Position numbers and translations under genes: made by a program | Notes under the pieces: generated by a model | Told to the model about the DNA's origin: nothing | What the model saw: only the letters and a program-made list of their open reading frames with translations | Databases searched by the model: none | Part shown: in pieces, positions 10,395-57,233 of the stretch | Numbering within the stretch: the stretch's first letter is position 1 | How the letters are laid out: the number at the start of each line of letters is the position of its first letter | Assembly: GCA_032718475.1 (NCBI GenBank) | Contig: JAUCBJ010007024.1 | Location: forward strand, 1-57,233 | Length of the DNA: 57,233 nt | Reading direction: 5' to 3' | Source of the DNA: Nemertoderma westbladi | Lineage: Eukaryota; Animalia; Xenacoelomorpha

Positions 10395-10412
10395 CAAGGA
10401 AAACCTGTTAAA

Positions 10413-32433: not shown

Positions 32434-32609
32434 AATTAAGCTACATAAAATTAACTCTATTGAACTATGTGAAGCGTACTTCTTCTAGAGATATCTTTTA
32501 TATCCGTGTAATATCGTGGTGCCTATTCCACCATATTGGTCTGTAGTTTAGGTCTACAACCCATATGGGCGTTTATTATTTGTTTCGGTATTATATACCG
32601 AGTGGGGAG

Positions 32610-33116
32610 TGTACTATTCTTGGAGAATAGTTAGTTAGTCATCAAACTAGTACCCATTTAGAGTGTTTAACATTAGCTAGTTATTTTCTGCAGTACCTAT
32701 TTAGAGTGTTTTACAACATTACCTAGTTATTTCTACAGTACCTATTTAGAGTGTTTTACATTATTAGCTAGAGATTTCTACAGTACCTATTGGGAGTGTT
32801 TATGTTTGTTAGAGGTTTACATACCGGTACCCTATGACTGGGGAGACGGCTTTGGTGTAAGATACAAACTCGGTTGAAGGTAATGTTTTTTGAAACAGGT
32901 GTTAACCATAGTACATAGATTACAGTTATCTGTTGATGGTACCGGTAAAGCGCAGCAGTATGGTGTGTTATATTATAAAGAACAATGACTCCCGGTCTGC
33001 CGGTACCGCATGTTTATTATACAGCCTTATTCGATAGATTTCATTTTCCATCTCCACTCTCGGTTGACCGCCCAGGTTCGGGGACCGACGCCATTCATTC
33101 ATATTAGGTGCGCCGT
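32610..33116 (+). repeat. E2 middle (3') LTR, interrupted about 18 bp before its end by E3
   Basis: Matches the E2 LTR up to GGTGCGCCGT, after which E3 sequence begins. Confidence 0.92.
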
Positions 33117-33244
33117 GTATAGAATTATATTCCCTAAATGCCGTGGATTTTCAAAATTTTATTTTTATTCGAATTAACTTTGTAAAGATTGCTTTGAGTT
33201 CTCATTCGTATTTGTTCTATCATTTGAAAGCCTATTGGTCAAGT

Positions 33245-33331
33245 GGTTCAGTAGCTCAGTCGGTAGAGCGTTGGAAATTATATGTGTAGTAGGTATTGAG
33301 TTCGAATCCTAGTAAGTGCGAATTATTTTTT
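33245..33331 (+). ncRNA. tRNA-derived Pol III cassette in the E3 LTR (not a functional tRNA)
   Basis: A box/D-arm TAGCTCAGTCGGTAGAGC, B box GAGTTCGAATCC and a T6 terminator. The acceptor and anticodon stems do not pair. Confidence 0.8.
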
Positions 33332-33384
33332 GTGCAGAATTTCAACTCATTTAAATTGACCGCTACAAATTAATTGCATTTGTC

Positions 33385-33663
33385 TGTACCAATGAGACTG
33401 TAGTTATTTGATTGTAACCAATGTCGTGCAAGTTATACATTAGCTGGACCAATAGCTATCTTTAAAACCTTGTTAGAACCTATAGAACAATCGAGAATTT
33501 TCTCGATTGATTGCAGCACAAATTTAGTATATAAAGGTGCGATTTGTTCATTAGTTATCACTCTCTCATTACTCTAACCATATTCGTATCTCTGAGTTAT
33601 CTAATATTTGTTTATTCTGTCATTAGTATTCAGATTACATTTTGTGTTATTATCTGCAATAAA
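33385..33663 (+). promoter_or_regulatory. E3 LTR Pol II promoter and polyadenylation signal
   Basis: Three CCAAT boxes spaced about 30 bp apart (about 33389, 33417 and 33449), TATATAAA at 33528-33535 and AATAAA at 33658-33663. Confidence 0.6.
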
Positions 33664-35902
33664 TTCAGAAATACCGCTATCTGCCTTTCTTTTTACCATG
33701 GATTCACTACGGTGAACAAACCTAAGGGACAGGATGGCCGGCTAGAGATCGGGCCGCAGCAATGAACGGGAACATCACAGGAATGTAGACGAGAGACAAC
33801 CCGCAATACCATCTTGAGTTATTCGCCCATCGCCTGAAAGGTTAGACAGCGTTCGACGCCTTGCTACCTAAGAGTAAGACCAAAGATCAAAAAGGTAGAA
33901 GTAGTGACACGCTGTGAGCCTAAAATTACATCTTAGGGACTGTACTGTCTTGATTCAGGAAAAAACCACAGTAGACCTTCACATTCCTACGGGGGGAGAG
34001 AGAGAGCGCAGGCAGATACTAGTACGCAGATAGGACGTAGGCACACCGGTACGAAGCATACAAATTGGTAGGGTGCAGCAAACTGTACGCCTAACTCTTG
34101 CTAAGTACAGGTGTGTGTGCGACTATTTGTAGTACAACGGTGTCCATTGCATTAGAACTTGTAGGCTAGGGGGGTTGCTGTGTTTTCACCTGAATTGGGA
34201 TTGTACCGTTCAGGCGGTAGGGCAGTTTACAACTAGGCGCAAATAAATTGAGGCTATTAGGGATACTAACATCTACCGTGTCCCCGCCAACGCCCTAATA
34301 GGAAGTTACCCGGACTACCTGGGTGACTAAAATTCTAGATAGGAGCCAGGATAGCTATTAGTAACAGTACGCCTACAGTAGTAAACTAACACATCTCTTC
34401 TTAGTATCAGGGACCTGGTACCTAAAATTGCCGAATTCTGGGCGTAGCATTAACCCTATGCCTGAATTTGAGTCCTGGAAATACGCAAGAGGGGAAGGAA
34501 CCTTATCATTCGTGAGTATTGGACCTACAAGTTACAAAATTAGAATATTCGTAAAATGCACACCGTACCCAGTAATTATATATGTGAAGGAGCAAAACTG
34601 TTTTTGACCGTTCAGAATTAACACACGCGCGTTAGAAATTATTTACACCTCAAAATATATAAAATTAACTTTTGTCCGTACTGTGCTTTGCCCGCTAGTT
34701 AGACATCTCCAAATCTCTGCCTGTGTACCTAGCTAGCGTCTCTTCGCCCAAACCATATAAATCACACCGCGGCAAAGTGTACGAGCCCCTTAGTCCGTCA
34801 GTGAGTCAGCCTGATTTTAGGATTCGCTGCGCGGGATTTTGTTTTATCGAAGTTTGTCTGCTCGTAGACTGTTTTCTGCCTCACCGGTTATAAGAGATCG
34901 ATACTGCAATATATTCGCTTACTTAGAGTTTACTGTTTTGGTGAGAAGGTCGGATTTATGATTTGATTTACAAACTTTACAGTAAGATATTGCAGGTATT
35001 GTTACCGTCTCTTCCAATAGTAGGAATGTGATTATTTTAACATATTTCCTAGAATAGTAGGAATGTGTGATTATTTTAACATATTTCCTAGAATAGTAGG
35101 AATGTGTTTTACTGAACTACGGTTCGGTAGGACTAAAGTTATTTGAAAATTTTGTATTTTGAGGTAAAAATTTATATTTGATTAGCTAAGTGCTAATTTT
35201 TGAAATAAAATTTGATTTGAACCGCGTGTAAAATATTTTTGGAATTGAATACCGGTGTTTAAAAGGGTTTAAATACCATATTGTACCGGTACAAAATTTT
35301 CGTAAAGTAAAACCTAACTCTTTTGTTTTTCAGGATTCAGAACTCATTTCTAGACTGTAACGGGAGCAAGACCGTGTTTAGCAAGTTTGGGAGATAGATA
35401 ACCCAACAACTTTGGTTGGGAAAATCGCGTTTCGTCCGCAACGTTAAAAACGGAAAGGTTCACGTCCGGTTTGTATCTGGGAATCTGTTTTTCTGGAGAA
35501 TTATTGGAGTGGGTGAGTTCGAAAAGTTGCATAAATAAGTTAGGCATTACCGTATTAGTTAAAATTATTGTGGGTTCCACTGTCTCAAGTATTTATGCAT
35601 TCCGTATGATTTCTTTGTTCATTGCTGAATTAGTCCGTATTATTGTATTTAATTTACCTTTTGATAACGCATATCGTTATCCGATTTATTTGTTATAAAA
35701 TTGGCCGCTAGGCTAATTTTATTATATACTTATTCCGTGACATTTATTTGCTGTAAAATTGGCCGTTTAGGCTAATTTTATCCATCTGCTATAAAATCGG
35801 CCGGTAGGCTAATTTTATATGACTGTAATTAGTACCGTTTAGATATAAATACGGTAAACTCGATACTTTGACACTCACTTTACTTGACTTACAACTACCG
35901 AA

Positions 35903-38900
35903 ATGAGTGACAAACAAGACTATACGAAGAATACACAAACCGACTATGACTCATGTGACGCGGATAAGTCAGCAGCGGAAGAACAACAGGGGAAGACTCG
36001 CGAGCCTACCGAACCTACACCGTGTGCGTCACCAGTACATCCAACGGGAGTACCGGATGCCGTAGTACGAGGCGACGGCAGGACCGAGGACTTTCTAACT
36101 GTTCCGCAACCTAGATACAGGGAAACGGAGATGGTAAGTTCAGTAGGAAGCCAGGAGAGCGTAGTTAGAAGCGTCGGCGGTTACATGGCGCATATTACCA
36201 GGAGTATTGGAGAAGGCCAACGCATATTAGACGAGTTAACCGCTCCGATGTCTCGGTTCGAGTTCTACACTCTACAGGTGAGAGTACAGAGTAAAGTATA
36301 TAAGTCCGTAGATAACCTAATTGGTCTACAAGATCTAGCTAGACAGAGACAGGATATGGACACTCAGCTTAGAATCCTCGAGAAACTAATGATCACTAGA
36401 GAGAAACTGATTCAGTTTAAGTCGACGATTAGGCAGATACAACAGGAACAAGCGGACCAGTTATTAGGTGAGTCGGTTTCGGACGAATTATTGCAACCCG
36501 AGGAAGAACAGGAACTGTACAGGCTAGATGGACAATTGAAACACCTGACGGATCACTTACGCATGTGCGGTGAGGACGTCGGAGATTGGGAAACCGTGCC
36601 GGAGGCTACGAGGGAAACTTCACTCGCACAAATCGAACTGGCACCGGGAACACTAAATCAATCACTGGTGAGTATTCGCAGCGAAATTGGCGAGGTGAGT
36701 ATGGCTACGTCAGAAATTGCTCGACAACAGCAGCTCTACAGACAACAACAGGAGATGGAGGAACAAACTGAACTGCTAATGGCACAAGCAGCAGTACAAG
36801 AAGAGAAACTACGTGTTGCGAATGTTGCAAGAATCTCTCATCTGCAAGAACAAGCCGAGTTGGAAGCAGCCGAGATGGAAAGATTAGAGTTGGACATTGC
36901 ACAACAGGCAGCGGCAGCGGCAGCGGCAGCGTCCGAGTTAGAGCGAAAAAGGTTAGCTTCAGAAGCGAGAACCGAAATGAAAAAACGGCAAATAAAGGCT
37001 CAATCAGCTATACGACAAGCGGAGTTCGAGGCGCAACAACAACAGACGGAACAACGCGAGAAGGAAGTTAAACTTCATTTCGAACTCGGGAAGAAGGCGA
37101 GAGAATTAGCCAACGCGAAGGAAGATCTGGATCTACAAGCCCGCGATCGATCGATGAGATCTCGTGACGGACATGATTTGGACCAGTTAGAGGTAAGGCA
37201 CCGTCAAATTCAGGAACGAATGAAGGAAGGAAGTGTAGGGGCACCTGGGCGAGAAAGACAACTAGTAAAGGACTTATGTCAAAGATTCCCTCGAGTAACT
37301 CCTATGTTTGCACCAGTTACGATTAAGGAACCTATTTCGATTGCTGGTAGTAGTAATATTTCTCCTATCCATGGTGCGACGGAACACAGGTTTGTTATTC
37401 CGGACAAGTTTACACCGCCAAGAGCAACGTCGTCGCCTATTCCGAAAGTCAAGGTAAGTAACCCGCCGATTACAGATCGTAGTAGTTTGTTGACCAGACC
37501 TGCACTACTGACGACTAAACAGGTGAGTTCACCTTCGACACCAAAACTCGTTACGCACTACACGTACCCAATGACGTTTAGGCCTACAAAGCCTTTGGAT
37601 TCAAACGCTGTAGTCCGACCACCGGTTCAGTTTACATCGCAATCTACGACTTCGAGGAAGACTTGTGAGCCTACCGAACAACGGAGACCAGTGGATACGC
37701 GACCGTTCAACCAGTTTACATCGCAATCTACGACTTCGAGGAAGACTTGTGAGCCTACCGAACAACGGAAACCAGTAGACGATGTTCCGAGACGGAATGT
37801 TAGGATTCGAACGGCGGAACGGACTCGAGCACGTCGACCACCGTATCCAGGTGACAGTAGTACTTCGAGCGAGTCGGATTACCCGGAACGCGAGGTATTT
37901 AGAACAGGAGCGGCCGACAAATGTAAACGTGAGCGTTCGGATAATTCATTTATCGACAATCCTCCACAGAATACGCCAACACAAAAGGCGTTACAACCAA
38001 CAGACGCGATCAGTACACAACAATTCGCCGACATTCTGCGACCAGTTGTCAATAAGTTGGCCCAGATTGAGGAACGCTTGGAGGAAGTTGAAACCGATAG
38101 TTCGAGGAACACCGAACTTGAACACAATAGCCACCCGAAGGATCCGCAAAGACCAATACCTTCGAGAAACACTTCTTATCAAGAAAAAGCGCCAAGAAGG
38201 GAGAACATCAACCAGGTTGCCAACCAAGGACGCGAAACTTTGAACGTGGCCGAGGAAATAGCGAAATTCGCAGCTAGACAAGGATTGCCGGTACAACAAC
38301 CACTGAAGTTTTCCGGTAGCTCAAAACACTGGCATACTTTCATAGACTATATCGAATCTCAGATCGCCGTGTGCGCCTTTACATCACGGGAGAAGTTTAA
38401 TTACCTGCTTCAAACGTTGTCAGGAGAACCTAAACGTTTGGCGGAGACCTTCGTTGGTGTACCGGACGCTTTCGAACTAGCGTACGATCGTTTGACCTCG
38501 ATCTACGGAGGCACAGTCAGTATGGCCAGGTCAGTAATAGAGGAACTCGGTAAGGGAGGGGCTATCACTAAACCCGTCGACTTATTAAAACTGGCCGACG
38601 AGATAAAGAACGCTATCACTACTTTAAGATCCATTGGACAACTCGACTACGGGAATACCCCTACAGTCCTATTAAAGATCATAGGACGACTCCACCATCG
38701 ACTTCGTCGGGAGTGGAGAAAGATCGAATACCAGCGGGAAGAGCGGGGTGGATTCTTAAAACTAGAGGATGTGTACCTTTTGATATCCAGGGAAGCAGTT
38801 GTAGAAACACGATCCAACTACACTGACCAGCACATCGTAGCAGAAGGGATCACCTTGCCATCCTCCAACCGACAAAAACCCCAGACAACATCCACTAAGA

Positions 38901-41900
38901 CGGCCACTTACGCCACACCGACGGAATCACGACAATTCTCGGACGGTAGTAGGGTATCTGCGCCCATTGGGACAAAACAGACGAGACAACAACTCAGTAC
39001 CGACTTCAGCGGCTGCCAATACTGCGAGCATTTAGGCAAGCGGTATATCGGTCACAAGTTGCGAGGTTGTCGACAATTTCGCGAGTTAAACTCGGAAGAA
39101 CGACGGCTGCAAATACGGCCATTGGACTCTTGTAGGCGGTGTACGCGACACGGACACATCCGTAAAGATTGCCCAAATACCGACACTTGTCCATCCTGTG
39201 GACGCAACCACGACGGTCTGCTCCACACAGACAGCCACACGCCGACAAAACGCTTCGCCAGGGAACACCCGGAAGCAGCAGCGAGATGTGATGCGGCCTA
39301 CAGAAAACGAGAATCGAAAACGACTCCAACCTTCGTGACCCATATTGAGGATTGCTTCTCAGAACAATCCGGATCGTCGGACGAAGAATCAGAAGACGAC
39401 GACGTATATTCGGATGGAGATGAACAGCCATCGATCGCGCTTCTGACTACTGACCAACTGAAGGGATTCAGTGTAATTCCGATTAAGATTACTGGCACAA
39501 AGGGAAGCAAGAGAATCTACGCGATTCTAGATTCAGCCTCATCTCACAGCTACGTGGATGAAAAGATAGCTGACGTAGTGACGGATCTTAAACAAGGTAA
39601 GCGCGTCAGTTATACCGTAAGTAGTATGCACGGACAGCGTGCAATACCAGTGACACGAGTTAAGTTGGACTTAGACTCTCTTCTTCCAAAATCGCAACAC
39701 AGCGAGAGGGAGAGGTCTTTGTTACCCTTTAAAGATCTAACCTTTGCGGCCACGAAGGACTTTAGTAACCTACTAGGTCCAGTGCCGGAACAATCTCTAG
39801 AGGACCGTAAGTATTTCAGACACCTTGGTGTACCCGAATGTCCTGTCAATTATAGATCGGTAGCCATGCTGATCGGGACAGACCAATTCAACCTACATCA
39901 GGTGTGGGAAACCAGACCATCGGCAGTTGTAGCGGGAAACGCATACGCCTGTAGAACGCCGATAGGGTGGTATACTCGAGCGCCTGTGCGCACATTAGAC
40001 ATAAGTGACGAGGAAGATGTACAAAGTACATGTAGTTTATTAACTACAAATTCAATTCATTCCTTCTCACACGACGTGGACCATACTACCTTACAGACAA
40101 AACACAACAGACGTGTAACTAGTATGATAAGTCACAAGGAGCAGCTAATTCACCAGGTGAGTTTAGAACTTGGGAAGAAGGCGAGTCAGCCAGAGATTCC
40201 ATCGACGACAGATGATAACGCCGGAAGACTTGCGAGCCTTTCTACACCAGACATATCGCCAGACGGTCAACCAGACACGTTACTAGACAGCCAACCAGAC
40301 ATTTTGCCAGACATATCACAAAATGTTCTACCAGACACTAGTGACATATTGACAAACAGTAAAGCCGCAGTTTCTCTATTGGAGCGGCCTTCTATTGACA
40401 AACAACCAGATACGTTACCAGACGTATCGCCAGACACATTACTAGACAGTCGACTAGACACTAGTAACGTACTGACAAATAGTGAAGCCGCTGTTTCCCT
40501 ATTGGAGCGGCCTTGTATTGACAAACTACCAATTTTGACACACTTGAGCAACCATAAGCACGGTGAAACCTCATGTATTACAGATGTGGGTAGTACCTAC
40601 GCTAATGTAAATACAGGTGTTACTCTGCGCTCAAGAGACATACCGAACTTGCAACCTACGGTGAGACCTGGGATTAATGTCGGCAGAAAAATAAGTTTAC
40701 CGAAACCTGCTGACCCCATAGAGTTCAAACCACCATTAACGATCGACTTACAAAGTACCGACAATCAAGGTAAGAAGACGAAGAAGGACAAATTACTTGT
40801 AGACCCGGACGGATCAACAGTCAACAAGGGAATACTTACCGGCGGACCCGTGGGCCCTTCTAGTAATTCAAAACCTTCCAAAATCTCCATTGACTTACCT
40901 GATGACGTCACAAATACTCACGTCGACCGGATTGTAAACTTAACAGACTCTTGGTCAAACGCTTGCCGAAAGTTAGCGTGGATTGTACGTTTTGTACAAT
41001 ACGTTAAAGGCAAACGCGACTTTACACGTCGACTTACATTGGCTGAGATTGACAGGTGTGAGATTAAATTAATTCGCCATTACCAACTGCGATATTTCGC
41101 GCGCGAATTCACATCTATAAATCAAGGTCAACCAATCAAGTCGTCACCAATACTGAGTTGGAGTCCGATTATTTATAATGGCTTAATTTGTCATAAATCT
41201 CGGCTTCAAAACATTGACTTTAACACAAACTTTAGGTACCCAATAATAATACCGCAACATCACGAACTACAACGTGCAATGATACTGGACGCACATTTAC
41301 ATCTGAAACACGCTGGAAGACACCACTGTCTTTCCTACTTACGTACAAGATTTGTATTAATTAGACCCAGTAAAGCGTTAAGTTCAGTGACACGTACGTG
41401 TATTATTTGTAAAAAGGTACATTCTAGAATAGGTACCCAAGAAATGAGTGAACTACCACAAGCACGACTTCAAGCATTCAGACCACCTTTTACAGAGACT
41501 GGAATTGATTGCTTTGGTCCCATACATACGAAACGTGGACGTATACTAGTAAAACGCTGGGGACTGATTTTCACATGTATGTCCAGTAGGGCAGTTCACA
41601 TTGAACGTGTGATGGATCTTTCCACCAACGCGTTTATACTAGCACTGCGGCGATTTATCGCTAGACGCGGACTAGTGAAATGCTTGTACTCAGACCAAGG
41701 GACAAACTTTGTTGGTGCTCGAAATGAGATTGCTAGAGCCTTTAAGAAATTAGATCATGATCAAATCTCGAACGAACTACAACCTCACAAGATTGTTTGG
41801 AAGTTTAATCCTCCAGATAGTCCATGGAGAGGCGGAGTCTGGGAGAGATTGATTAGATCTATAAAGACGGCAATGGCAAAGGTCATTCCAGTAAACCACA

Positions 41901-42430
41901 TATTGACAGACGACCAACTGACAACACTGTTTGTTGAAATCGAGGCAATACTAAATACTAGACCAATAGTATTAGTACCCGATGACAAACAATCTCAGTT
42001 TGCTTTGACACCGGCACACCTGCTTATGCAGGCACCGTCTACATTAATACCTATTTCAATTCCAACAGAAAGCGATAGCTATGGTAGAAAAGCGTGGAAA
42101 ATCACGCAACTACTAGCTAACAAATTCTGGGAAATATGGCAAAACCATTATTTGCCCTCTATTTCTGCCAGAACAAACTGGTACAATAACACCCGCGCAT
42201 TAAAGCCGGGAGATCACGTGCTGTTAGCAGAAGTGAATCTAAAAAGACGCTTCTGGATAACAGGTGTAATTCTAGCCACACATCCATCTATGGATGGAGT
42301 GACAAGAACTGTGACAGTACGGACAATTGACGGTCGTACAGTAGACAGACCGACTCAACGTCTCGTACTTCTTGAAGAGACTCGTAACGAGTCTGGAGAC
42401 TACAAATCTCCACCTAATACTAGTAAATAA
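35903..42430 (+). CDS. E3 Gag-protease-integrase polyprotein (2175 aa), with no RT or RNase H
   Basis: Coiled-coil N-terminus, gag FSGSSKHW..F and YLLQTLSGEP, three Cys/His knuckles, protease YAILDSAS..TPIGW, a low-complexity spacer of about 310 aa, then H..LKHAG..CIIC, GIDCFGP, SDQGTNF and GVWERLIRS. No YxDD, QGP, DAS or PRLEL motifs. Confidence 0.93.
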   Translation: MSDKQDYTKNTQTDYDSCDADKSAAEEQQGKTREPTEPTPCASPVHPTGVPDAVVRGDGRTEDFLTVPQPRYRETEMVSSVGSQESVVRSVGGYMAHITRSIGEGQRILDELTAPMSRFEFYTLQVRVQSKVYKSVDNLIGLQDLARQRQDMDTQLRILEKLMITREKLIQFKSTIRQIQQEQADQLLGESVSDELLQPEEEQELYRLDGQLKHLTDHLRMCGEDVGDWETVPEATRETSLAQIELAPGTLNQSLVSIRSEIGEVSMATSEIARQQQLYRQQQEMEEQTELLMAQAAVQEEKLRVANVARISHLQEQAELEAAEMERLELDIAQQAAAAAAAASELERKRLASEARTEMKKRQIKAQSAIRQAEFEAQQQQTEQREKEVKLHFELGKKARELANAKEDLDLQARDRSMRSRDGHDLDQLEVRHRQIQERMKEGSVGAPGRERQLVKDLCQRFPRVTPMFAPVTIKEPISIAGSSNISPIHGATEHRFVIPDKFTPPRATSSPIPKVKVSNPPITDRSSLLTRPALLTTKQVSSPSTPKLVTHYTYPMTFRPTKPLDSNAVVRPPVQFTSQSTTSRKTCEPTEQRRPVDTRPFNQFTSQSTTSRKTCEPTEQRKPVDDVPRRNVRIRTAERTRARRPPYPGDSSTSSESDYPEREVFRTGAADKCKRERSDNSFIDNPPQNTPTQKALQPTDAISTQQFADILRPVVNKLAQIEERLEEVETDSSRNTELEHNSHPKDPQRPIPSRNTSYQEKAPRRENINQVANQGRETLNVAEEIAKFAARQGLPVQQPLKFSGSSKHWHTFIDYIESQIAVCAFTSREKFNYLLQTLSGEPKRLAETFVGVPDAFELAYDRLTSIYGGTVSMARSVIEELGKGGAITKPVDLLKLADEIKNAITTLRSIGQLDYGNTPTVLLKIIGRLHHRLRREWRKIEYQREERGGFLKLEDVYLLISREAVVETRSNYTDQHIVAEGITLPSSNRQKPQTTSTKTATYATPTESRQFSDGSRVSAPIGTKQTRQQLSTDFSGCQYCEHLGKRYIGHKLRGCRQFRELNSEERRLQIRPLDSCRRCTRHGHIRKDCPNTDTCPSCGRNHDGLLHTDSHTPTKRFAREHPEAAARCDAAYRKRESKTTPTFVTHIEDCFSEQSGSSDEESEDDDVYSDGDEQPSIALLTTDQLKGFSVIPIKITGTKGSKRIYAILDSASSHSYVDEKIADVVTDLKQGKRVSYTVSSMHGQRAIPVTRVKLDLDSLLPKSQHSERERSLLPFKDLTFAATKDFSNLLGPVPEQSLEDRKYFRHLGVPECPVNYRSVAMLIGTDQFNLHQVWETRPSAVVAGNAYACRTPIGWYTRAPVRTLDISDEEDVQSTCSLLTTNSIHSFSHDVDHTTLQTKHNRRVTSMISHKEQLIHQVSLELGKKASQPEIPSTTDDNAGRLASLSTPDISPDGQPDTLLDSQPDILPDISQNVLPDTSDILTNSKAAVSLLERPSIDKQPDTLPDVSPDTLLDSRLDTSNVLTNSEAAVSLLERPCIDKLPILTHLSNHKHGETSCITDVGSTYANVNTGVTLRSRDIPNLQPTVRPGINVGRKISLPKPADPIEFKPPLTIDLQSTDNQGKKTKKDKLLVDPDGSTVNKGILTGGPVGPSSNSKPSKISIDLPDDVTNTHVDRIVNLTDSWSNACRKLAWIVRFVQYVKGKRDFTRRLTLAEIDRCEIKLIRHYQLRYFAREFTSINQGQPIKSSPILSWSPIIYNGLICHKSRLQNIDFNTNFRYPIIIPQHHELQRAMILDAHLHLKHAGRHHCLSYLRTRFVLIRPSKALSSVTRTCIICKKVHSRIGTQEMSELPQARLQAFRPPFTETGIDCFGPIHTKRGRILVKRWGLIFTCMSSRAVHIERVMDLSTNAFILALRRFIARRGLVKCLYSDQGTNFVGARNEIARAFKKLDHDQISNELQPHKIVWKFNPPDSPWRGGVWERLIRSIKTAMAKVIPVNHILTDDQLTTLFVEIEAILNTRPIVLVPDDKQSQFALTPAHLLMQAPSTLIPISIPTESDSYGRKAWKITQLLANKFWEIWQNHYLPSISARTNWYNNTRALKPGDHVLLAEVNLKRRFWITGVILATHPSMDGVTRTVTVRTIDGRTVDRPTQRLVLLEETRNESGDYKSPPNTSK

Positions 42431-43092
42431 TTAGGAGTTTACAAATAGATTTCCACGTACCTGTACACTGTAGTAAGGACAGCGGTAGAATTCCATTGTC
42501 TTTATATGTGAACATTGAGGGTAGTACCCTTATGTGTCACATAGGAGCGGGATTTGTAGGTATAAGAAATGGAATTCTACTTGGAACTCACAATATTGAG
42601 ACATTTTCGAAATTTTAGACAATCCATTTGGATTTGAAAAATTTTTAAAATTTTCTCCAGTGAATAGATTTCAGGGTACAGTCGGGTGGAACTTAAAATT
42701 AGAGAAACAAGAGAGGAAGACTTGCGAGCCTTTCTTAAAATTTTAATTAAATTTTACACGGTCTTGTTTCAATAAGTTACGTCAAATAATAGACTCCCCT
42801 ATATTTATTACTAATTCTTGACTGCTTATTTTCTGATAATAGTTTGGGATCAAAAAGTGAGTATTTTAGACTCACAGCCAGTTTAGCCCAAATTCGTTTT
42901 TTATTTCGGCAAAAAATTTTAGATAAGAAGCAGCGTGTCATTAAAGAAACCTTAGATCTTAGGCTATGGGTAGGAGGTTAGAGCGTTGTCGAGCCAAAAG
43001 GGCAGACGAAACTCTCACGTCTCCTCACAACTAACTACAAACTCTGTTGTATTCCCTCTAGTAGCAATGATTATGTAACTACACCTCTAATT

Positions 43093-44830
43093 ATGGAGAA
43101 AGGGATACAAGGAGAGCCGAGATGGGGATATGATATCCAAGAGGAGGCAGCAGCGCCATTCGAAAGATTTGGAGCCAAGGACTACACTATATTCGGTATA
43201 AAGGAATTATCGGAAAGTACAGCGAAACTCGCAAAGACTAAATATGACAACCCTTCTACAACTCCGACGCTCAGTGTAATGCCTTTACTCGAGCAGGATT
43301 TAGTATATTTCGAGACGTGTATCTTCGCTGTGCGGGATCTCTTATCGAAAGACCATCTATGTTTACATTGTTACCCTATGAAGGAGAACGTATCGTGGAG
43401 ATTACGGATGAATCACGGCAGACGCGCGCGCCTATCGGTCACCTTGGTGATGATTTCGAAGTAACTACTACGATCGCCGACGATCCTTTAGAGGAACTTC
43501 TTGAGATAAAAAGGAACCTCCCGAAGAAATCTCAGACGGAGATTCGACAACTTGAAGCAACAGATGATATAGTTTGTATACAACCTTCAGAAACCTACCA
43601 ACCCATAGACCCAGATGATTACGATTATAGTGTGGGAGGAAGCGCTCGACCGATTGGAGATCTTATATACGAACGAGTGTGGTACCCTGCCAATACGATG
43701 TGTAGTAAATGTGGCGTCGCTGGACATCATATGACAAAGTGCAGTGGAAAGCACATTACTACGACTCAGCTAATCTGTGGATGGTGTGGGGATCAAGGGT
43801 CTCATACCTTTTATACTTGCTGGAGATTTATGGCTCAATGTACTTACTGCAATATAAAGGGCATCGAGCATCTGAATGCCAACTAAGATATATACCTTAT
43901 GAACACGAATCTGTAAAACTCGTGAGGAAATTATTTGATGAGTGGGAAGATTTAGCCGACGAACATGTATCGGCACAAAGAAGACGGTTTCCGATGAGGG
44001 CGCATCTTGGATTTTGGGCGGTAAATCCCCAGACGATGATGTCGGAAGGATATATCTCCGCTATGCCCCAATATGACGAACTTATCGAGGTAGTCGATAT
44101 TTTGCCCCACGACAGCGGATTTCGAGTAGTGCGCGAGTATCTACTACAGATTCACCCGGATAACAAAAACACGTGGAATTTTCAGAAAGTCGTTAATCGC
44201 ATTACTTATGGTGAATTCGATCGTTTCCGAACTGAAAAATGGAATAAAGGAGCTTGGTTAACCGTCGCATGGGCGTACCGAGCCGCGTTTTACCATAAAC
44301 GTATACGAGCGAGCGTATTCGAGGAAGAAGAGGTCCTAGAGGCGACAAATATACCAGCCACTCCGGTTGCGCCGTCTGCACGTCACCCTCGGGAGGACGG
44401 ACAGGGTAGGATCATACGGGTCCAGAAAGTGGGCCAACAGTTAAAGAAGTCTATTAATATAGAAGAACGCAGGGGAGTTGAGCCGACCATTCGAGTTACT
44501 CGGGATACGGTATCGCTTCCTAGAGAACCAGTAGGAGGATCGGGACATACACCAGCTGATCAACAGGGGGCGCAAGCTACTCTTGGGTCTGCGTCGTCCG
44601 CTTCTCGCGCGTTCCCAGACGTTCTACCAACTGTAGTGACAACTGATCGGTCACGAGGAATCGGTCGAGGTTTTGGGATGCTAAATAGACGAATTTGCGA
44701 GGAAATGGTCGCACCGTCTCTCAACGTCCAAACGAAACCAGTGACTCGCCCCACGAGTCCCATATCGCGAGCAAAGTCACCTGTGCGCAGTTTTCGAGGA
44801 CGCGGCAGGGCTCGATCAACTAAGCGATAA
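43093..44830 (+). CDS. E3 accessory ORF of about 580 aa if two -1 frameshifts are bridged; three CCHC zinc knuckles and an RG-rich tail
   Basis: Three overlapping ORFs in successive -1 frames. Knuckles CSKCGVAGHHMTKC, CGWCGDQGSHTFYTC and CTYCNIK/GHRASEC, the third spanning a frameshift. An upstream CTAAC..polypyrimidine..TAG acceptor lies at 43031-43061. Confidence 0.7.
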
Positions 44831-45032
44831 AAGGGAGGGCAAGGGTGGACGGAAGACTCGTGAGCCTTTCTTATGATTTTGTGATTTATTTGAATTTATA
44901 TTTATATTTGTGTTTATTCCGAACTTATGCAATTTGTATTGTTCCGAATTTATGAAATTTAGAAAGTTTATATTTAGAAGGAACTTATATTTGAAAGATG
45001 ATATTATTTAGATTTATGTTTCATATTTGAGA

Positions 45033-45099
45033 TGCAAAGGAGTTTATATTATTCTAAACTTGTGCTGCACAAGTTTAGAATAATATAAACTCCTTTGCA
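45033..45099. repeat. Perfect 67-bp palindrome (33-bp arms, 1-nt centre)
   Basis: TGCAAAGGAGTTTATATTATTCTAAACTTGTGC-T-GCACAAGTTTAGAATAATATAAACTCCTTTGCA. Confidence 0.97.
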
Positions 45100-45517
45100 G
45101 TTTATATCTATATTTAGTAAAGATTTATATTTGTAAGAATTTATATTTTATATTTGTGATTATTCCGAACTTATGCAATTTATATTGTTCCGAATACTAT
45201 GCAATTTATATCTTATAAGCAGTATTTGTATTTACAGTGAAATAGAAATAATTGTTTGAATTTATGCAATATTGAAATGCAATAGATTTATATTGGTGAA
45301 TTTAATTTAGATTTATATTGTACTTACTTAGTAAAGCCTTAAATACGTAAAGTTTGAATTTGTAATTATTTTGTATCGAATCATTATGTAGAAAGGAAGT
45401 ATTGTTTGAAATTTAATTTGTAAATATGTAAGTACGCCCTAAGTATTCTATAGTTTGATTGATTATTGGTGAAAACCGTATATTTTATGCACGATAATAT
45501 CCTGTTTTCATGGAGCG

Positions 45518-47420
45518 GTATAGAATTATATTCCCTAAATGCCGTGGATTTTCAAAATTTTATTTTTATTCGAATTAACTTTGTAAAGATTGCTTTGAGT
45601 TCTCATTCGTATTTGTTCTATCATTTGAAAGACTATTGGTCAAGTGGTTCAGTAGCTCAGTCGGTAGAGCGTTGGAAATTATATGTGTAGTAGGTATTGA
45701 GTTCGAATCCTAGTAAGTGCGAATTATTTTTTGTGCAGAATTTCAACTCATTTAAATTGACCGCTACAAATTAATTGCATTTGTCTGTACCAATGAGACT
45801 GTAGTTATTTGATTGTAACCAATGTCGTGCAAGTTATATATTAGCTGGACCAATAGCTATCTTTAAAACCTTGTTAGAACCTATAGAACAATCGAGAATT
45901 TTCTCGATTGATTGCAGCACAAATTTAGTATATAAAGGTGCGATTTGTTCATTAGTTATCACTCTCTCATTACTCTAACCATATTCGTATCTCTGAGTTA
46001 TCTAATATTTGTTTATTCTGTCATTAGTATTCAGATTACATTTTGTGTTATTATCTGCAATAAATTCAGAAATACCGCTATCTGCCTTTCTTTTTACCAT
46101 GGATTCACTACGGTGAACAAACCTAAGGGACAGGATGGCCGGCTAGAGATCGGGCCGCAGCAATGAACGGGAACATCACAGGAATGTAGACGAGAGACAA
46201 CCCGCAATACCATCTTGAGTTATTCGCCCATCGCCTGAAAGGTTAGACAGCGTTCGACGCCTTGCTACCTAAGAGTAAGACCAAAGATCAAAAAGGTAGA
46301 AGTAGTGACACGCTGTGAGCCTAAAATTACATCTTAGGGACTGTACTGTCTTGATTCAGGAAAAAACCACAGTAGACCTTCACATTCCTACGGGGGGAGA
46401 GAGAGAGCGCAGGCAGATACTAGTACGCAGATAGGACGTAGGCACACCGGTACGAAGCATACAAATTGGTAGGGTGCAGCAAACTGTACGCCTAACTCTT
46501 GCTAAGTACAGGTGTGTGTGCGACTATTTGTAGTACAACGGTGTCCATTGCATTAGAACTTGTAGGCTAGGGGGGTTGCTGTGTTTTCACCTGAATTGGG
46601 ATTGTACCGTTCAGGCGGTAGGGCAGTTTACAACTAGGCGCAAATAAATTGAGGCTATTAGGGATACTAACATCTACCGTGTCCCCGCCAACGCCCTAAT
46701 AGGAAGTTACCCGGACTACCTGGGTGACTAAAATTCTAGATAGGAGCCAGGATAGCTATTAGTAACAGTACGCCTACAGTAGTAAACTAACACATCTCTT
46801 CTTAGTATCAGGGACCTGGTACCTAAAATTGCCGAATTCTGGGCGTAGCATTAACCCTATGCCTGAATTTGAGTCCTGGAAATACGCAAGAGGGGAAGGA
46901 ACCTTATCATTCGTGAGTATTGGACCTACAAGTTACAAAATTAGAATATTCGTAAAATGCACACCGTACCCAGTAATTATATATGTGAAGGAGCAAAACT
47001 GTTTTTGACCGTTCAGAATTAACACACGCGCGTTAGAAATTATTTACACCTCAAAATATATAAAATTAACTTTTGTCCGTACTGTGCTTTGCCCGCTAGT
47101 TAGACATCTCCAAATCTCTGCCTGTGTACCTAGCTAGCGTCTCTTCGCCCAAACCATATAAATCACACCGCGGCAAAGTGTACGAGCCCCTTAGTCCGTC
47201 AGTGAGTCAGCCTGATTTTAGGATTCGCTGCGCGGGATTTTGTTTTATCGAAGTTTGTCTGCTCGTAGACTGTTTTCTGCCTCACCGGTTATAAGAGATC
47301 GATACTGCAATATATTCGCTTACTTAGAGTTTACTGTTTTGGTGAGAAGGTCGGATTTATGATTTGATTTACAAACTTTACAGTAAGATATTGCAGGTAT
47401 TGTTACCGTCTCTTCCAATA
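45518..47420 (+). repeat. E3 3' LTR (possibly truncated at its right end)
   Basis: A near-identical copy of 33117-35019 that ends ...TTCCAATA and joins the E2 3' UTR with no TSD. Confidence 0.9.
45646..45732 (+). ncRNA. tRNA-derived Pol III cassette, 3' LTR copy
   Basis: Same A box, B box and T6 as 33245-33331. Confidence 0.8.
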
Positions 47421-48037
47421 TGGTGCCTATTCCACCATATTGGTCTGTAGTTTAGGTCTACAACCCATATGGGCGTTTCTTATTTGTTTCGGTATTATAT
47501 ACCGAGTGGGGAGTGTACTATTCTTGGAGAATAGTTAGTTAGTCATCAAACTAGTACCCATTTAGAGTGTTTAACATTAGCTAGTTATTTCTACAGTACC
47601 TATTTAGAGTGTCTTACAACATTAGCTAGTTATTTCTACAGTACCTATTTAGAGTGTTTTACATTATTAGCTAGAGATTTCTACAGTACCTATTGGGAGT
47701 GTTTATGTTTGTTAGAGGTTTACATACCGGTACCCTATGACTGGGGAGACGGCTTTGGTGTAAGATACAAACTCGGTTGAAGGAAATGTTTTTTAAAACA
47801 GGTGTTAACCATAGTACATAGATTACAGTTATCTGTTGATGGTACCGGTAAAGCGCAGCAGTATGGTGTGTTATATTATAAAGAACAATGACTCCCGGTC
47901 TGCCGGTACCGCATGTTTATTATACAGCCTTATTCGATAGATTTCATTTTCCATCTCCACTCTCGGTTGACCGCCCAGGTTCGGGGACCGACGCCATTCA
48001 TTCATATTAGGTGCGCCGTCGCCGCGACCCCAGGATA
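47421..48037 (+). mobile_element. Second E2-family 3' end (3' UTR, PPT and a complete 524-bp LTR at 47514-48037)
   Basis: Repeats 32517-33116 with several substitutions and continues to CCCCAGGATA. Confidence 0.92.
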
Positions 48038-51077: not shown

Positions 51078-52390
51078 ATGTAATGTAATGTAATGTAATG
51101 TAATTGCACTCCAAATAATTGCACCGACAAATAAAATAATTAATTATTTAAAATTAATCTTAATGACATACATATTCACAAAATGAAATTGAATTAGACC
51201 TTTAATTAAACAATTATATGTATGGAGGGAGAAGATAACCCAGGCAATGTTGCACTTACGAGCGTATCTCTATTGGAATTAAGTAAAAATATTGCAAACT
51301 AAAAAAATAAAATGGTAAAACACGGTCAGTCATTATGAACAGAGAAAATATAAAAAAAATAAAAATCAAAATCAAATCAAAATACGAGGCGGGGTATAAT
51401 GTGTGCATATTTAAACAAAATGACACAAGTGACTAAAATCAATATGACGTATATGGCAATTAAAAATATACAAATTACGTGCATTAACGGCATCTGAGGG
51501 CAAGGAATTCCACACGGATACTATACGGCTGGCAAAACGATTTCTGACAACGACTAGCCTGCTAGGCTGTGCAAACAGTTTCCTGTTATGGCCTCGCAAA
51601 CCTTGCCGTTGCACATGCGAGAAAAAATCGTTAAAATGAAGGTCAATGTTATTGTGACAAATATTATAAACCATACGGATATCAAAAATAATTCGCCTAA
51701 CTTCTAATGGTTGGAGTTTCAAGTGTATTAATCTATTAGAGTAACTGTTATCTATGTGTGTTAACTGACATCTTGAAAACAATCGTCTGGTGAAATATCG
51801 TTGGACGCGCTCAACCAATTTTATATTAAAGATTTGGTGAGGAGACCAAACCACAGTACAATACTCTAACAGTGGGCGAACATACGCCTTATAAGCCGTA
51901 ATAAGTACGTTGACATTAGAAGTGTGGAAGCACCTAAATAATATATTGCACATTTTATACGCCTTGGATACTTGTTGGCTGCAGTATTTGCTGAAACGCA
52001 GATTTTTGGTAACGATAATACCTAGGTCCTTACAACTCTCCTTGAGTTCTAGAATAGAACCGTTGAGAGTGTACTCACTCGGTGTGCGTGTACCAAGGTG
52101 AAGTACATGACATTTGTGAGCAGCGACATTGAGCTGCCAGGTTTTACTCCAACTGGCTAATCTATCCAACGCATTTTGAATGTTTGCCGGATTATTACTG
52201 TTTCCATATAATTTTAAATCGTCAGCAAATAGTTTGCAACCTACATTTGTAAATTCCGAAGGCAAATCGTTTACAAAAACTAGGAACAAAATCGGCCCCA
52301 AGACGCTTCCTTGGGGTGTTCCTGATTTGACGTCAACATAATCTGAGTATTTGTATCCAACTAAAACACGTTGACTACGATTAGCTAAGC
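51078..52390 (-). mobile_element. 5'-truncated CR1-group LINE with an (ATTAC)n tail
   Basis: RT motifs GTPQGSVLGP, FADDLKLY, KDLGI, YVRPLLEY and RGHN. The 3' UTR ends in (TGTAA)5 on the + strand. Confidence 0.92.
51411..52390 (-). CDS. CR1-like ORF2 C-terminal RT fragment (frame intact, 5'-truncated)
   Basis: An uninterrupted frame runs from RSQRVLVG to the stop codon. Confidence 0.85.
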
Positions 52391-52701
52391 GATTACAGGC
52401 TGACAGGTGTATAAACACAACCTGACATGACAACAGCTTCCATTAGACTGTTAGATGTAGTCTCAGACCAGACCACAGGCCAGCAGGCTGACAGACTCGT
52501 TGGCTACAGTCTGACAGTTGACAGTAGGCCTACCGCGCTACCGGTACTGTAATAGGCTACTACAGTAATAACTACCTCAGTACTGCGGCTGCGGGTATTG
52601 TTACTTTGAGGACCGTCAGACCGTCCCTTAAAACACTTACCGGTATATATATTTATCAGTTTATTTATGTGTTTATTATTATGTAATTTATTTATTATGT
52701 G

Positions 52702-55081: not shown

Positions 55082-55772
55082 AACCAAAGAACACAGGTTA
55101 TAGTCTTATTTTTGCAACCGGCTGATGGTTGGCCTACATACAGACCTACTGACCTACCAACCAGCCTATGGCTGTATGATACGGTAGCACTCTGCCTGTC
55201 TGCCGCTACTTAATGCAGTATTGACTTAGCTGATTCGGACATCGTATTGCTATGTATGGCCTATTTAATATCTAACCTAACTGCCTAACCAAAATACTAA
55301 ATCGCACTACCGATACCGAAGCACATACGGTAAGAACCCTACTGCCCTATAGGCCTAAGGTATAGCATGTATAGGATATAAAATATTTTTGTCTTTTTCT
55401 GCTTTTTGGGTAGGCCTAAGTTTTTTGGGTAATTCCAAATGTATTGTACAAATCTATTTTGGAGGACTAGAAATTAGCTTAATTTGTTTAGGCCTATTTT
55501 TATATTCTACAAATTAACGTGGCCTGGGCTGCTGCTGTGCTGGGCATGTGTGTTCGGGTGTTCCCTACTGATGACTGACCTTCTCAGCTACTGTTTACCG
55601 ATTACTGGTACCGGTACCCGTATACTGGTATATGATACTGGCCTATTTATAAATTTCCAATTTAATAGACAGATAGAGATTGAACATATGTACAAAATTA
55701 GGCCTACAACTGTAAAATGCTGATGCAGTTAGGACCTCAGCTAACATTCTAGGATAGATTGATAATCAGATA

Positions 55773-56802
55773 ATGGCAGCTGAAAAGGTGGAAATATCGG
55801 AAAGTTTATTTCCTGATTCATCCGTTAGCACGGACGACCGACCGTTGATGGATTCCTCTGAGACGAACAAACTCACGCAGTGTAGCGGATCGCATGATGT
55901 CCGCCAGAATCACGCCCGTTCCCAGACGTACGCGGGGGCCACGGATTCCGCTCCCAGGACTCGTCGGACTCCCCACATATCCACGGGATCCGATCCCGCC
56001 ACGGTTACCCCAGTCGTGGGAGAGCGTCGGCCCAGTCTACAGGAGAGGTTCTCTTTCCTCGATAAATTACTTCATCCTTGGAAGTGGAGGAGGAAGAAAA
56101 AAAGTAAAACTTTCGAAGAGAAACAAATGTCATTGGAGCGGAAGATTAGCGTTCGTGCAACTCGCGACGATTTGGTTAAAAAGGGAGTTCTGAGACCGGA
56201 GGAAGTTATTAGTGAGGATAACTCCCTCCCGAGTGACTGTAACGGGAAGAGTCCCACCGTGGGGGACACCCGTCTTACGGGCGTCCCGGAAACAGCCTGG
56301 ACCGGGGGCCAGCTGAACCACGCGTCTAAGAACGTCTCCTCCGGTGATAAATCCCCTCGGGGCGTTACCGGCCAAGGGAAAGGGGTCGGACGGACCGCTA
56401 AAGGGAACACGGTGCCATCCTCGCGAACAGCCACCTCCCGCGCCCCCCTGGACGCGGCGGCCACCCCCCGCCCCCTGAGCATCGGCCCTCCTCCCCGGAG
56501 TAACACCGGTCCAGCGGCCATCTCGCTGGGAGCCCTGATCCGCAGTCAGAGTCTCCCGGTTGCCAACTACCTGGGCGCTCGGGAGGCGACCCTGCAGCAC
56601 TCCCAGGAGGAGGCGCTCCCCGAGGAGCCGGACTCGCCCCCGCCCCCCTCGGTTCCGCCGCCTCCCATGGAGTACAACCCCCCGGAAGCCCCCTCAACCG
56701 ACCCCAGTAAGCGCTACTCCGGTAGCTACCCGGTCCCCGGAGATGGGCGGGTTCGTGTGCTGCTTCTACCGCAGTCGGACGCCCAGAAGTGGGAAACTCA
56801 AG
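55773..56802 (+). CDS. PHACTR: Phosphatase and actin regulator, first coding exon (the gene continues beyond the window)
   Basis: F..L..LLHPWKWRRKKKS..F....SLERKISVRATRDDLVKKGVL is the Phactr N-terminal NLS plus RPEL1, followed by a Pro-rich linker. Acceptor CTAACATTCTAG ends at 55752 and donor G|GTAAGT starts at 56803. Confidence 0.9.
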
Positions 56803-57233
56803 GTAAGTAGAATCCGACTAAATGTAGGTTAATCCGTAATCAGTACAGTAACCAACATTCCACAATCTTTGTTGCTTTGCATTGTTGGTTCCGTATGCGA
56901 TAAAGGATATTACTCGATATGATGTGCGGTGCAAATAATTTCGGGTACCAGTAATTCGGGATTATTTATCACAATTTTTTGTCATAATGAGGCCACCGCC
57001 TAAACATTCTTCTACATCTGTAAAAAAATAACACCAAATATTCACTTAATTCATAATGTTGCAGACGAATCGACTTGTGGATTGGTATTTGCTCCATAAC
57101 ATTGTTTGGTAGTTAACAAATAAATATAAATATATTTAATACACCACACGTTTCGAATATATTATTCGAAGATATTGGGATAGTAACAGAACCAGAACAA
57201 CCCACACAGCTAAAGAGTAATGTTAATTTTCAT

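What the first reader, a model, noticed from the sequence alone, without database searches (positions are those of the whole stretch)
35991..44870. Six dispersed copies of a 20-nt stem-loop GGAAGACT-YGYG-AGCCT(TTC/ACC) across E3
Seen: copies lie at 35991-36010, 37656-37675, 37740-37759, 40223-40242, 42715-42734 and 44851-44870, all on the sense strand. They occur in two reading frames of the polyprotein (K-T-R/C-E-P versus G-R-L-A-S-L) and in two non-coding regions, so conservation is at the nucleotide level. Each folds as GGAAGACU[YGYG]AGCCU(U/A)(U/C)C with a fixed A.C mismatch. Variation is confined to the tetraloop pyrimidines and the outer stem, where G.U/G-C pairing is kept. Copies 4-6 bracket the integrase and accessory-ORF modules, and copy 4 sits where RT is missing. 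Copies 2 and 3 derive from one 84-bp duplication. I did not see the motif in E1 or E2. Inference: these are multivalent RNA signals for packaging, export or helper-RT recruitment, possibly bound by Gag NC or the accessory CCHC protein. Alternatively they are template-switch sites that shuffled modules.
Basis: partly seen in the sequence, partly recalled or inferred. Interest (0 to 1): 0.85.

Follow-up and report, generated by a model that had tools for sequence, protein, structure and literature searches.

The report
Repeated RNA hairpin along a retrotransposon
A BEL/Pao retrotransposon carries at least eight copies of one 20-letter hairpin along its sense strand, kept by paired changes in the stem; they likely act as repeated binding sites for the element's own zinc-knuckle proteins, and this copy likely lost its reverse transcriptase by a deletion between two of them.

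Summary
All six copies are exact (chance 0.01). A structure-only scan found two more, at 40841 and 43417. These keep all 11 invariant letters and show three concerted stem changes. Pairing is therefore under selection, although the lone hairpin is barely stable. All eight lie on the sense strand of one BEL/Pao element; E1, E2 and host DNA have none. Contigs of this high-copy family, from three studies, show that copy 4 is a junction. Some share only the upstream side and carry a variant hairpin; others share only the downstream side, from the hairpin's first base. The RT loss is therefore probably a deletion between two hairpins in this copy, not a family trait, which weakens the helper-RT idea. 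One run shows GT..AG joints that would make a spliced mRNA for an orphan zinc-knuckle gene. Best reading (0.45): a distributed signal for export or packaging, bound by the element's own knuckle proteins. Main rival (0.25): multi-point RNA dimer pairing through the self-complementary YGYG loop. No binding was tested. My paper searches found no such signal in BEL/Pao.

The parts
35991..36010 (+). Hairpin copy 1 (loop CGCG), 88 nt into the gag ORF
37656..37675 (+). Hairpin copy 2 (loop TGTG), in an 84-nt-period duplication
37740..37759 (+). Hairpin copy 3 (loop TGTG), duplicate of copy 2
40223..40242 (+). Hairpin copy 4 (loop TGCG); junction where family contigs leave or join the window sequence; likely end of the RT-RNase H deletion
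40841..40860 (+). New hairpin copy with two compensatory pairs (4-17 G-C, 8-13 C-G), A.C kept, loop CGTG
41315..41334 (+). Candidate ninth copy: perfect 8-bp hairpin with related arms but loop CCAC, inside the integrase zinc-binding coding region
   Evidence: 0 such sites in 300 shuffles; criterion set after seeing the site; score 12 of 16, at chance level on that score
42715..42734 (+). Hairpin copy 5 (loop TGCG), non-coding, between the polyprotein stop and the accessory gene
43417..43436 (+). New hairpin copy with a compensatory closing pair (8-13 G-C), A.C kept, loop CGCG, in the accessory gene
44851..44870 (+). Hairpin copy 6 (loop CGTG), 21 nt after the accessory stop, just behind a purine-rich run
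35903..42430 (+). BEL/Pao polyprotein ORF, 2175 aa: long coiled-coil-like N-terminus, DUF1759 Gag, three Cys/His knuckles (from 39014, 39131, 39188), protease motif DSAS, about 300 aa of low-complexity spacer, integrase with DUF5641; no RT or RNase H
43062..44830 (+). Accessory gene, in three overlapping frames in this copy (breaks near 43250-43460 and near 43860); two complete CCHC-type knuckles (43701, 43776), a helical middle part and a basic tail; no homolog found
35513..43061 (+). Putative intron (GT..AG) that removes gag-pro-int and six of the eight hairpins, giving a spliced accessory mRNA
   Evidence: one X4 contig, 29 letters on the short side; canonical donor and pyrimidine-rich acceptor
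33841..35333 (+). Putative leader intron (GT..AG)
   Evidence: (one X4 contig, 23 letters on the short side)
33117..35019 (+). Left terminal repeat block (1903 bp) holding a TATA box (about 33528), AATAAA (33658) and a tRNA-like A/B-box stretch; its ends are not TG..CA
45518..47420 (+). Right terminal repeat block, 2 differences from the left

Best explanation
The motif is a 20-nt stem-loop repeated at least eight times along the sense strand of one BEL/Pao LTR retrotransposon family, and it likely serves as a distributed binding site for the element's own zinc-knuckle proteins, marking the long unspliced RNA for export and packaging. Shown: the copies; their single orientation; their restriction to E3; selection on pairing (three concerted stem changes, a fixed purine-pyrimidine wobble position, a YGYG loop); and that copy 4 is a junction between two sides that other family members carry apart. 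Inferred: the fold is weak alone and would be stabilised by a bound protein. The two loop guanines (loop positions 2 and 4) would fit two CCHC knuckles, as for HIV NC on SL2 and SL3. The binder would be the orphan CCHC protein from the spliced mRNA (Rev- or CERV-like) or Gag NC. Six or more sites on the unspliced RNA against two on the spliced RNA would favour the genome by multivalency. As a side effect, the repeats would let reverse transcriptase jump between copies. This copy likely lost RT-RNase H that way, staying in frame.
For: Eight sites meet a structure-only descriptor, all on + and all in E3, against a mean of 0.03 per shuffled E3. With the loop left free, all 8 E3 hits still have YGYG, and the two other hits in the window do not. 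The iid expectation for the 14 fixed features is 9e-5. All 36 of 36 cells are paired, with 3 double-change cells; 1 of 500 shuffles was as high and slid controls gave 0. The coding copies give unrelated peptides. E3 is not CpG-depleted (o/e 1.13-1.28, against 0.53-0.83 elsewhere), and the loop varies only C/T, so CpG decay is a poor explanation. Family contigs show G.U in place of A.C at pair 6-15, with the loop kept; that A+.C and G.U are isosteric is recalled. The element encodes two knuckle clusters. X4 shows GT..AG joints to the accessory gene. HIV NC binds G at tetraloop positions 2 and 4 (PMC7599994, passages). Cer1 exports its RNA through a spliced Cys-rich accessory protein (PMC10309623, abstract, passages and section 15).
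Against: No binding, export or packaging was tested. The hairpin folds no better than shuffles and is predicted in context for only 1 of 8 copies, whereas copy-to-copy duplexes are far more stable, which favours the dimer rival. Only 6 distinct sequences carry the covariation, and the descriptor was written after 43417 and the contig variant had been seen; only 40841 is a blind hit. Pair counts alone do not choose the strand: the minus strand folds slightly better. Two copies stay on the spliced RNA. Each splice joint rests on one contig with under 30 letters on the short side, in a run guessed to be DNA. The accessory knuckles score below Pfam cut-offs (E 0.02). Deletions in the RT region also occur without hairpins: in E1 and in 2 of 120 homologous proteins.
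Confidence: 0.45

Rival explanations
1. Multi-point dimer linkage or RNA compaction. Each copy is a quasi-palindrome whose YGYG loop is self-complementary with G.U wobble. Weak hairpins would convert, with NC as chaperone, into 20-bp duplexes between two genomes or between distant copies of one RNA.
For: Y opposite an invariant G at all 14 loop positions of 7 independent copies. In-register duplexes between different standard copies reach -12.6 to -20.2 kcal/mol, against -0.4 to -2.0 for a hairpin. The two divergent copies pair best in register with themselves (-17.2 and -18.1, against -2.8 to -10.3 with others). Covariation fits a duplex as well as a hairpin. The G.U variant seen in contigs would give Watson-Crick pairs opposite a standard A.C copy (inference). 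MLV starts dimers with palindromic stem-loops (PMC13736810, passages).
Against: Self-dimer energy beats shuffled sequences at the 5% level for only 1 of 6 distinct copies (p 0.045; the others 0.07-0.60). The UGUG copy self-pairs weakly (-8.2). A duplex alone does not explain why the 6-15 mismatch is always A.C while 3-18 is free. The dimer signals in the passages read lie mostly in the 5' leader, not along the genome.
Confidence: 0.25
2. The hairpin is read by a host RNA-binding protein (export adaptor, transport or stability factor), like the RSV direct repeats or the MPMV CTE.
For: The structural evidence is the same as for the best reading. RSV has two hairpin-forming direct repeats flanking src that serve export and packaging (PMC9143442, passages). 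Copies occur on both spliced and unspliced RNA.
Against: There is no Rfam match. Two other BEL/Pao elements in the same host lack the hairpin or any dispersed hairpin family. E3 alone among the three carries an orphan knuckle gene.
Confidence: 0.12
3. The copies are selected recombination (template-switch) sites that let the family swap or drop 2-2.5 kb modules.
For: Downstream-only contigs begin at the hairpin's first base in X1, X3 and X4, and upstream-only contigs leave within or just before it. The window keeps the downstream-type hairpin whole (X4 record 18: 0 other letters over 54), which fits a copy-choice jump. Copies sit near gene boundaries, and extra copies appear in the 3' region of other members. 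Stem-loops and direct repeats raise RT switching (PMC3187697, passages).
Against: Homology-driven switching would select for identity between copies, not for compensatory divergence (40841, 43417). Only one of eight sites is shown to be a junction. None of the 15 joints listed table 5 connects two window copies (44 not shown). Short and imperfect repeats delete rarely.
Confidence: 0.1
4. A double-stranded DNA site for a dimeric host or element protein, for example one that keeps the element unmethylated or transcribed.
For: The motif is an imperfect palindrome. E3 escapes the CpG depletion of its neighbours.
Against: All 8 copies share one orientation. Concerted changes at 8-13 and 4-17 have no reason in a DNA half-site. 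The central CpGs vary to TG. There is no copy in the terminal repeat block where the promoter lies.
Confidence: 0.05
5. Neutral footprints: a short segment spread by repeated RT slips, without function.
For: Copies 1-3 share a 3' flank and copies 5-6 share a few flanking letters, so copies do spread by short duplications. The fold is weak.
Against: The two old copies differ at 4-5 positions, all compensatory or at free positions, while 11 positions stay invariant.
Confidence: 0.04

Closest known systems
Cer1 CERV (C. elegans LTR retrotransposon; PMC10309623: abstract, passages, section 15) and retroviral Rev/Rex/Rem systems
   Same: An accessory Cys-rich protein from a spliced mRNA in an element whose genomic RNA keeps working splice sites.
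   Different: In the parts read no cis element is identified for CERV. Rev-type response elements are one large structured region (further details recalled). Here there are eight or more dispersed 20-nt units in a BEL/Pao element. The accessory protein has CCHC knuckles and no homolog, and its function is untested.
Rous sarcoma virus direct repeats (DR) flanking src (PMC9143442 passages; PMC3187697 passages and a reference title)
   Same: A repeated hairpin-forming cis element for export and packaging that flanks a gene and is tied to its deletion.
   Different: Two copies of about 115 nt, read by host factors. Here there are 8 or more copies of 20 nt, most inside coding sequence in different frames.
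Dispersed packaging signals of MS2, HBV and picornaviruses (PMC6281560, passages)
   Same: Many small stem-loops spread along a genome with a shared loop motif.
   Different: Those signals are degenerate and bind capsid protein of icosahedral viruses. Here 11 of 20 positions are invariant, with a fixed internal wobble, in an LTR retrotransposon.
HIV-1 SL2/SL3 bound by NC (PMC7599994, passages) and MLV SL-A/SL-B palindromes (PMC13736810, passages)
   Same: A tetraloop with G at positions 2 and 4; palindromic hairpins able to pair between molecules.
   Different: Those are single-copy and clustered in the 5' leader, not repeated along the genome.

Membership tests
BEL/Pao LTR retrotransposon (Belpaoviridae) | DUF1759 Gag with three Cys/His knuckles | tested here: met
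   PF03564 E 1.5e-10; three knuckle motifs
BEL/Pao LTR retrotransposon (Belpaoviridae) | Protease motif, then integrase with DUF5641 at the C-terminus | tested here: met
   DSAS motif and integrase motifs; PF18701 E 5.7e-21, PF17921 E 1.5e-4; 32-38% identity to BEL polyproteins
BEL/Pao LTR retrotransposon (Belpaoviridae) | RT and RNase H between protease and integrase | tested here: not met
   Absent in this copy. Family contigs carry other sequence on both sides of this junction; its identity could not be read. This copy is a deletion derivative, not an autonomous member.
BEL/Pao LTR retrotransposon (Belpaoviridae) | TG..CA LTRs with PBS, PPT and a short target-site duplication | tested here: inconclusive
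   1903-bp repeats with TATA and AATAAA, but the ends are not TG..CA and the flanking duplication is 600 bp
RT-less non-autonomous family that borrows a helper RT | Most family copies share the RT-less junction | tested here: inconclusive
   0 of 19 listed pieces bridge the junction with 31 letters on both sides (251 not shown); upstream-only and downstream-only contigs occur in 3 of 3 organism-A runs laid. This leans against it.
Rev/CERV-type export system | Accessory protein made from a spliced mRNA | tested here: inconclusive
   One GT..AG joint in X4 at canonical sites; the run type is a guess
Rev/CERV-type export system | The accessory protein binds the cis element and exports unspliced RNA | not testable with these tools
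   needs binding and export assays
Dispersed packaging signals | Multiple stem-loops with a shared loop motif along the genome | tested here: met
Dispersed packaging signals | Binding to the structural protein promotes assembly | not testable with these tools
   needs a binding or assembly assay
Dimer-initiation palindrome | Self-complementary loop and a favourable intermolecular duplex | tested here: inconclusive
   The loop is self-complementary in 8 of 8 copies and the duplex is favourable, but better than shuffles in only 1 of 6
Known Rfam RNA family | Covariance-model match | tested here: not met
   one chance match (E 1) elsewhere, none at the copies

The most novel reading that the evidence does not exclude
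A complex BEL/Pao element runs a distributed Rev/RRE-like system. An orphan CCHC protein from a spliced mRNA recognises a 20-nt hairpin placed every 0.6-2.5 kb along an RNA of over 12 kb. The same hairpins zip genomes or module ends together, so they also fix where reverse transcriptase recombines and drops whole modules.
Probability: 0.25. Interest if true: 0.88.

Novelty: new variant of a known kind. Interest (0 to 1): 0.72.

Why it matters
My searches turned up no paper on cis-acting RNA signals of BEL/Pao elements (open-access library only). For Cer1, the LTR retrotransposon with a Rev-like protein that I read about, the parts read name no RNA target. Here a 20-nt, covarying, multi-copy target sits beside two candidate binders, so it becomes directly testable with short RNAs how a very long retrotransposon RNA is exported, dimerised or packaged. 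The element also shows a cost of such repeats: a gene module likely lost between two copies.

Tried and rejected
No whole genome is held for this window, so no genome-wide count was possible. Metagenome scan: 26 stretches with one match each, none encoding a BEL protein or matching E3, read as chance. Viral contigs: 2 single matches, not examined further, and no relative of the integrase. No RNA holder was listed among the runs; this is no evidence either way. X5 (organism B) had no contig on copy 4. A search for shorter proteins that span the junction found none. Motif peptides were absent from 120 homologs. The two RT-less homologs P0026 and P0033 are near-identical to the RT-bearing P0032 and P0041 in a quick, unfinished tree of 63 rows (E3, E1, E2 and the best 60 of 120 hits), so they are not an RT-less lineage; the E3-E1 join in that tree is a long-branch join and was not used. 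Accessory protein: no homolog in residues 50-230 or for the 373-aa last frame; the single-sequence fold was unusable (pLDDT 36); PDB matches were only weak knuckle hits (E 0.23 or worse); the atlas did not complete. Rfam and ARAGORN were negative. CpG decay as the cause of YGYG was rejected. No AATAAA lies within 100 nt behind any of 7 copies tested, and ATTAAA behind one. Considered from recall and dropped without a call: ADAR or m6A target, IRE1 loop, p53, BANP or SMAD site; the variant copies break these consensus patterns. Earlier findings: nothing. No supplements were read; repeat-library supplements of genome papers could hold this family.
Full report
1. Observation. The 17-nt core occurs six times, exactly at the stated places, all on the + strand; 0.01 matches are expected and none of 100 shuffles reached six. 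Copies 1-3 read K-T-R/C-E-P and copy 4 reads G-R-L-A-S-L. Copies 5 and 6 are non-coding on +. Copies 2 and 3 come from one duplication.

2. The element. E3 spans 33117-47420 with 1903-bp terminal repeats that differ at 2 positions. Its 2175-aa ORF has DUF1759, three knuckles, a protease motif, an integrase zinc domain and DUF5641, but no RT or RNase H. The best relatives are BEL/Pao polyproteins at 32-38% identity; 118 of the 120 listed have an RT region. About 600 aa separate protease from integrase in P0001; E3 has about 300 aa of low-complexity spacer there. Downstream lies an accessory gene, in three frames in this copy, with two complete CCHC-type knuckles and a basic tail. It has no homolog in two large searches. 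The family is abundant: 18,217 contigs of run X1 and 7,664 of X3 lie on it; these are not copy numbers. One contig each of run X4 shows GT..AG joints that remove 33841-35333 and 35513-43061, both at canonical donor and acceptor sites. X4 is on record only as a guessed DNA run and the short sides are under 30 letters, so the spliced accessory mRNA is likely but not proven.

3. Is it a structure? By energy, hardly. Isolated copies fold at -0.4 to -2.0 kcal/mol, no better than shuffles, and in 140-nt context only copy 5 has appreciable pair probability. By comparison, yes. A descriptor that asks only for paired arms, a YGYG loop and a wobble at 6-15 finds eight + strand sites in the whole window, all in E3: the six, plus 40841 and 43417 (mean 0.03 per shuffled E3). 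It also finds the minus-strand reading of copy 1. The descriptor was written after 43417 and a contig variant had been seen, so 40841 is the blind hit. With the loop left free, all eight still have YGYG, and the two other hits in the window do not. The new copies keep all 11 invariant letters and change pair 8-13 from U-A to G-C or C-G and pair 4-17 from A-U to G-C. All 36 of 36 cells are paired, with 3 double-change cells; 1 of 500 shuffles was as high and every slid control gave 0. The tool warns that this count is not a probability, and there are only six distinct rows. Position 3-18 is free. A perfect hairpin with related arms at 41315 may be a ninth copy, but its loop differs and its score is at chance level. 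E1, E2 and host DNA have no dispersed hairpin family larger than two. The loop varies only between C and T, and E3 is not CpG-depleted, so CpG decay does not explain it.

4. Copy 4 is a junction. Laying four runs on 40172-40290 gave two kinds of contig in each of X1, X3 and X4 (three studies; one may be the source of the window). One kind follows the window upstream, carries a variant hairpin with G.U in place of A.C and the same loop, and goes on into sequence absent from the stretches laid (loose ends at 40217 and 40236; 286 further letters in X4 record 17). The other kind follows the window from 40222 or 40223, the hairpin's first base, and comes from a different upstream sequence (117 letters in X4 record 18, then 0 differences over 54). 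None of the 19 listed pieces bridges the window's junction with 31 letters on both sides; 251 pieces and 17 loose-end rows were not shown, so the window form may still be common. X5 had no contig here. The simplest reading is that family members hold a further module between two hairpins and that this copy lost it. By BEL/Pao domain order that module would be RT-RNase H; this is inferred, not read. A recombinant between two sister families crossing at the hairpin is the alternative. The window keeps the downstream hairpin whole, which fits a copy-choice jump (model: PMC3187697, passages). Against a special role, RT-region deletions without hairpins occur in E1 and in two homologs. Either way, recruitment of a helper RT loses its main argument.

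5. How it most likely works. Shown: a strand-specific, element-specific, covarying unit with two invariant loop guanines and a fixed wobble position. Inferred: something reads its shape. HIV NC holds the guanines at tetraloop positions 2 and 4 in its two knuckles (PMC7599994, passages), the positions of G in YGYG. E3 encodes knuckles in Gag and in an accessory gene that is likely spliced. Cer1 needs a spliced Cys-rich protein to export its unspliced RNA (PMC10309623; abstract, passages, section 15). Six of eight copies lie in the intron. I therefore favour a distributed export or packaging signal bound by the element's own knuckles (0.45). The strongest rival is multi-point dimer pairing (0.25). 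YGYG is self-complementary with wobble, and duplexes between different standard copies reach -12.6 to -20.2 kcal/mol, but self-duplexes beat shuffles in only 1 of 6 copies. The two models can coexist. A host reader (0.12), selected recombination sites (0.10), a DNA site (0.05) and neutral spread (0.04) follow.

6. Comparison and novelty. It works like the RSV direct repeats (PMC9143442, passages), dispersed packaging signals (PMC6281560, passages) or a Rev/CERV system. It is not shown to be a member of any of them, since binding and function are untested. The element is a BEL/Pao derivative by Gag, protease and integrase; this copy fails the RT feature. Eight searches of the open library (listings only, apart from the papers named here and passages of PMC13736810 and PMC5408684) showed no dispersed hairpin signal in BEL/Pao elements. 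Subscription journals and repeat databases were not searched. There is no Rfam match, and the motif shows only single, chance-like matches in metagenome and viral contigs.

7. Verdict. The feature is real and under selection for pairing, with more copies than first reported and with direct signs of recombination at one copy. It is a new variant of a known kind (multi-copy retroelement RNA signal). Interest 0.72; 0.88 if the distributed Rev-like reading holds.

Noticed in passing
window 32517-33116 and 47421-48019: E3 is flanked by a 600-bp direct duplication of the 3' end of E2, and its terminal repeats lack TG..CA ends. This does not look like an integrase product; repair-type insertion or an assembly artefact are both possible.
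   Followed up: partly
window 35903-44830: E3 has CpG o/e 1.13-1.28, while E1, E2 and host flanks are at 0.53-0.83; the family seems to escape CpG decay.
   Followed up: partly
window 33246-33320 and 45647-45721: A tRNA-like stretch with A and B boxes lies inside the terminal repeat; ARAGORN and Rfam do not call it.
   Followed up: partly
window 45240-45290: Other family members seem to carry extra hairpin copies in this AT-rich 3' region (joints to 37739, 42715 and 44841 in X1 and X3; a contig of organism B starts matching exactly at 42715).
   Followed up: partly
window 10390-10395: E1 also lacks most of RT-RNase H: its ORF stops right after the YVDD motif and goes on with the integrase region, with no hairpin of the E3 type at the break.
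   Followed up: partly
window 44831-44848: A purine-rich run followed by TG lies just before copy 6; it could be the true PPT and LTR start, which would put copy 6 at the start of U3.
   Followed up: no
window 45033-45099: A perfect 33-bp inverted repeat in the AT-rich 3' region.
   Followed up: no
window 33913-33921 and 46314-46322: A 3' half of the motif (9 nt) in the terminal repeats, without the 5' arm.
   Followed up: no
window 55758-56810 and 51411-52442: A host exon with an RPEL repeat, and a fragment of a non-LTR reverse transcriptase.
   Followed up: no
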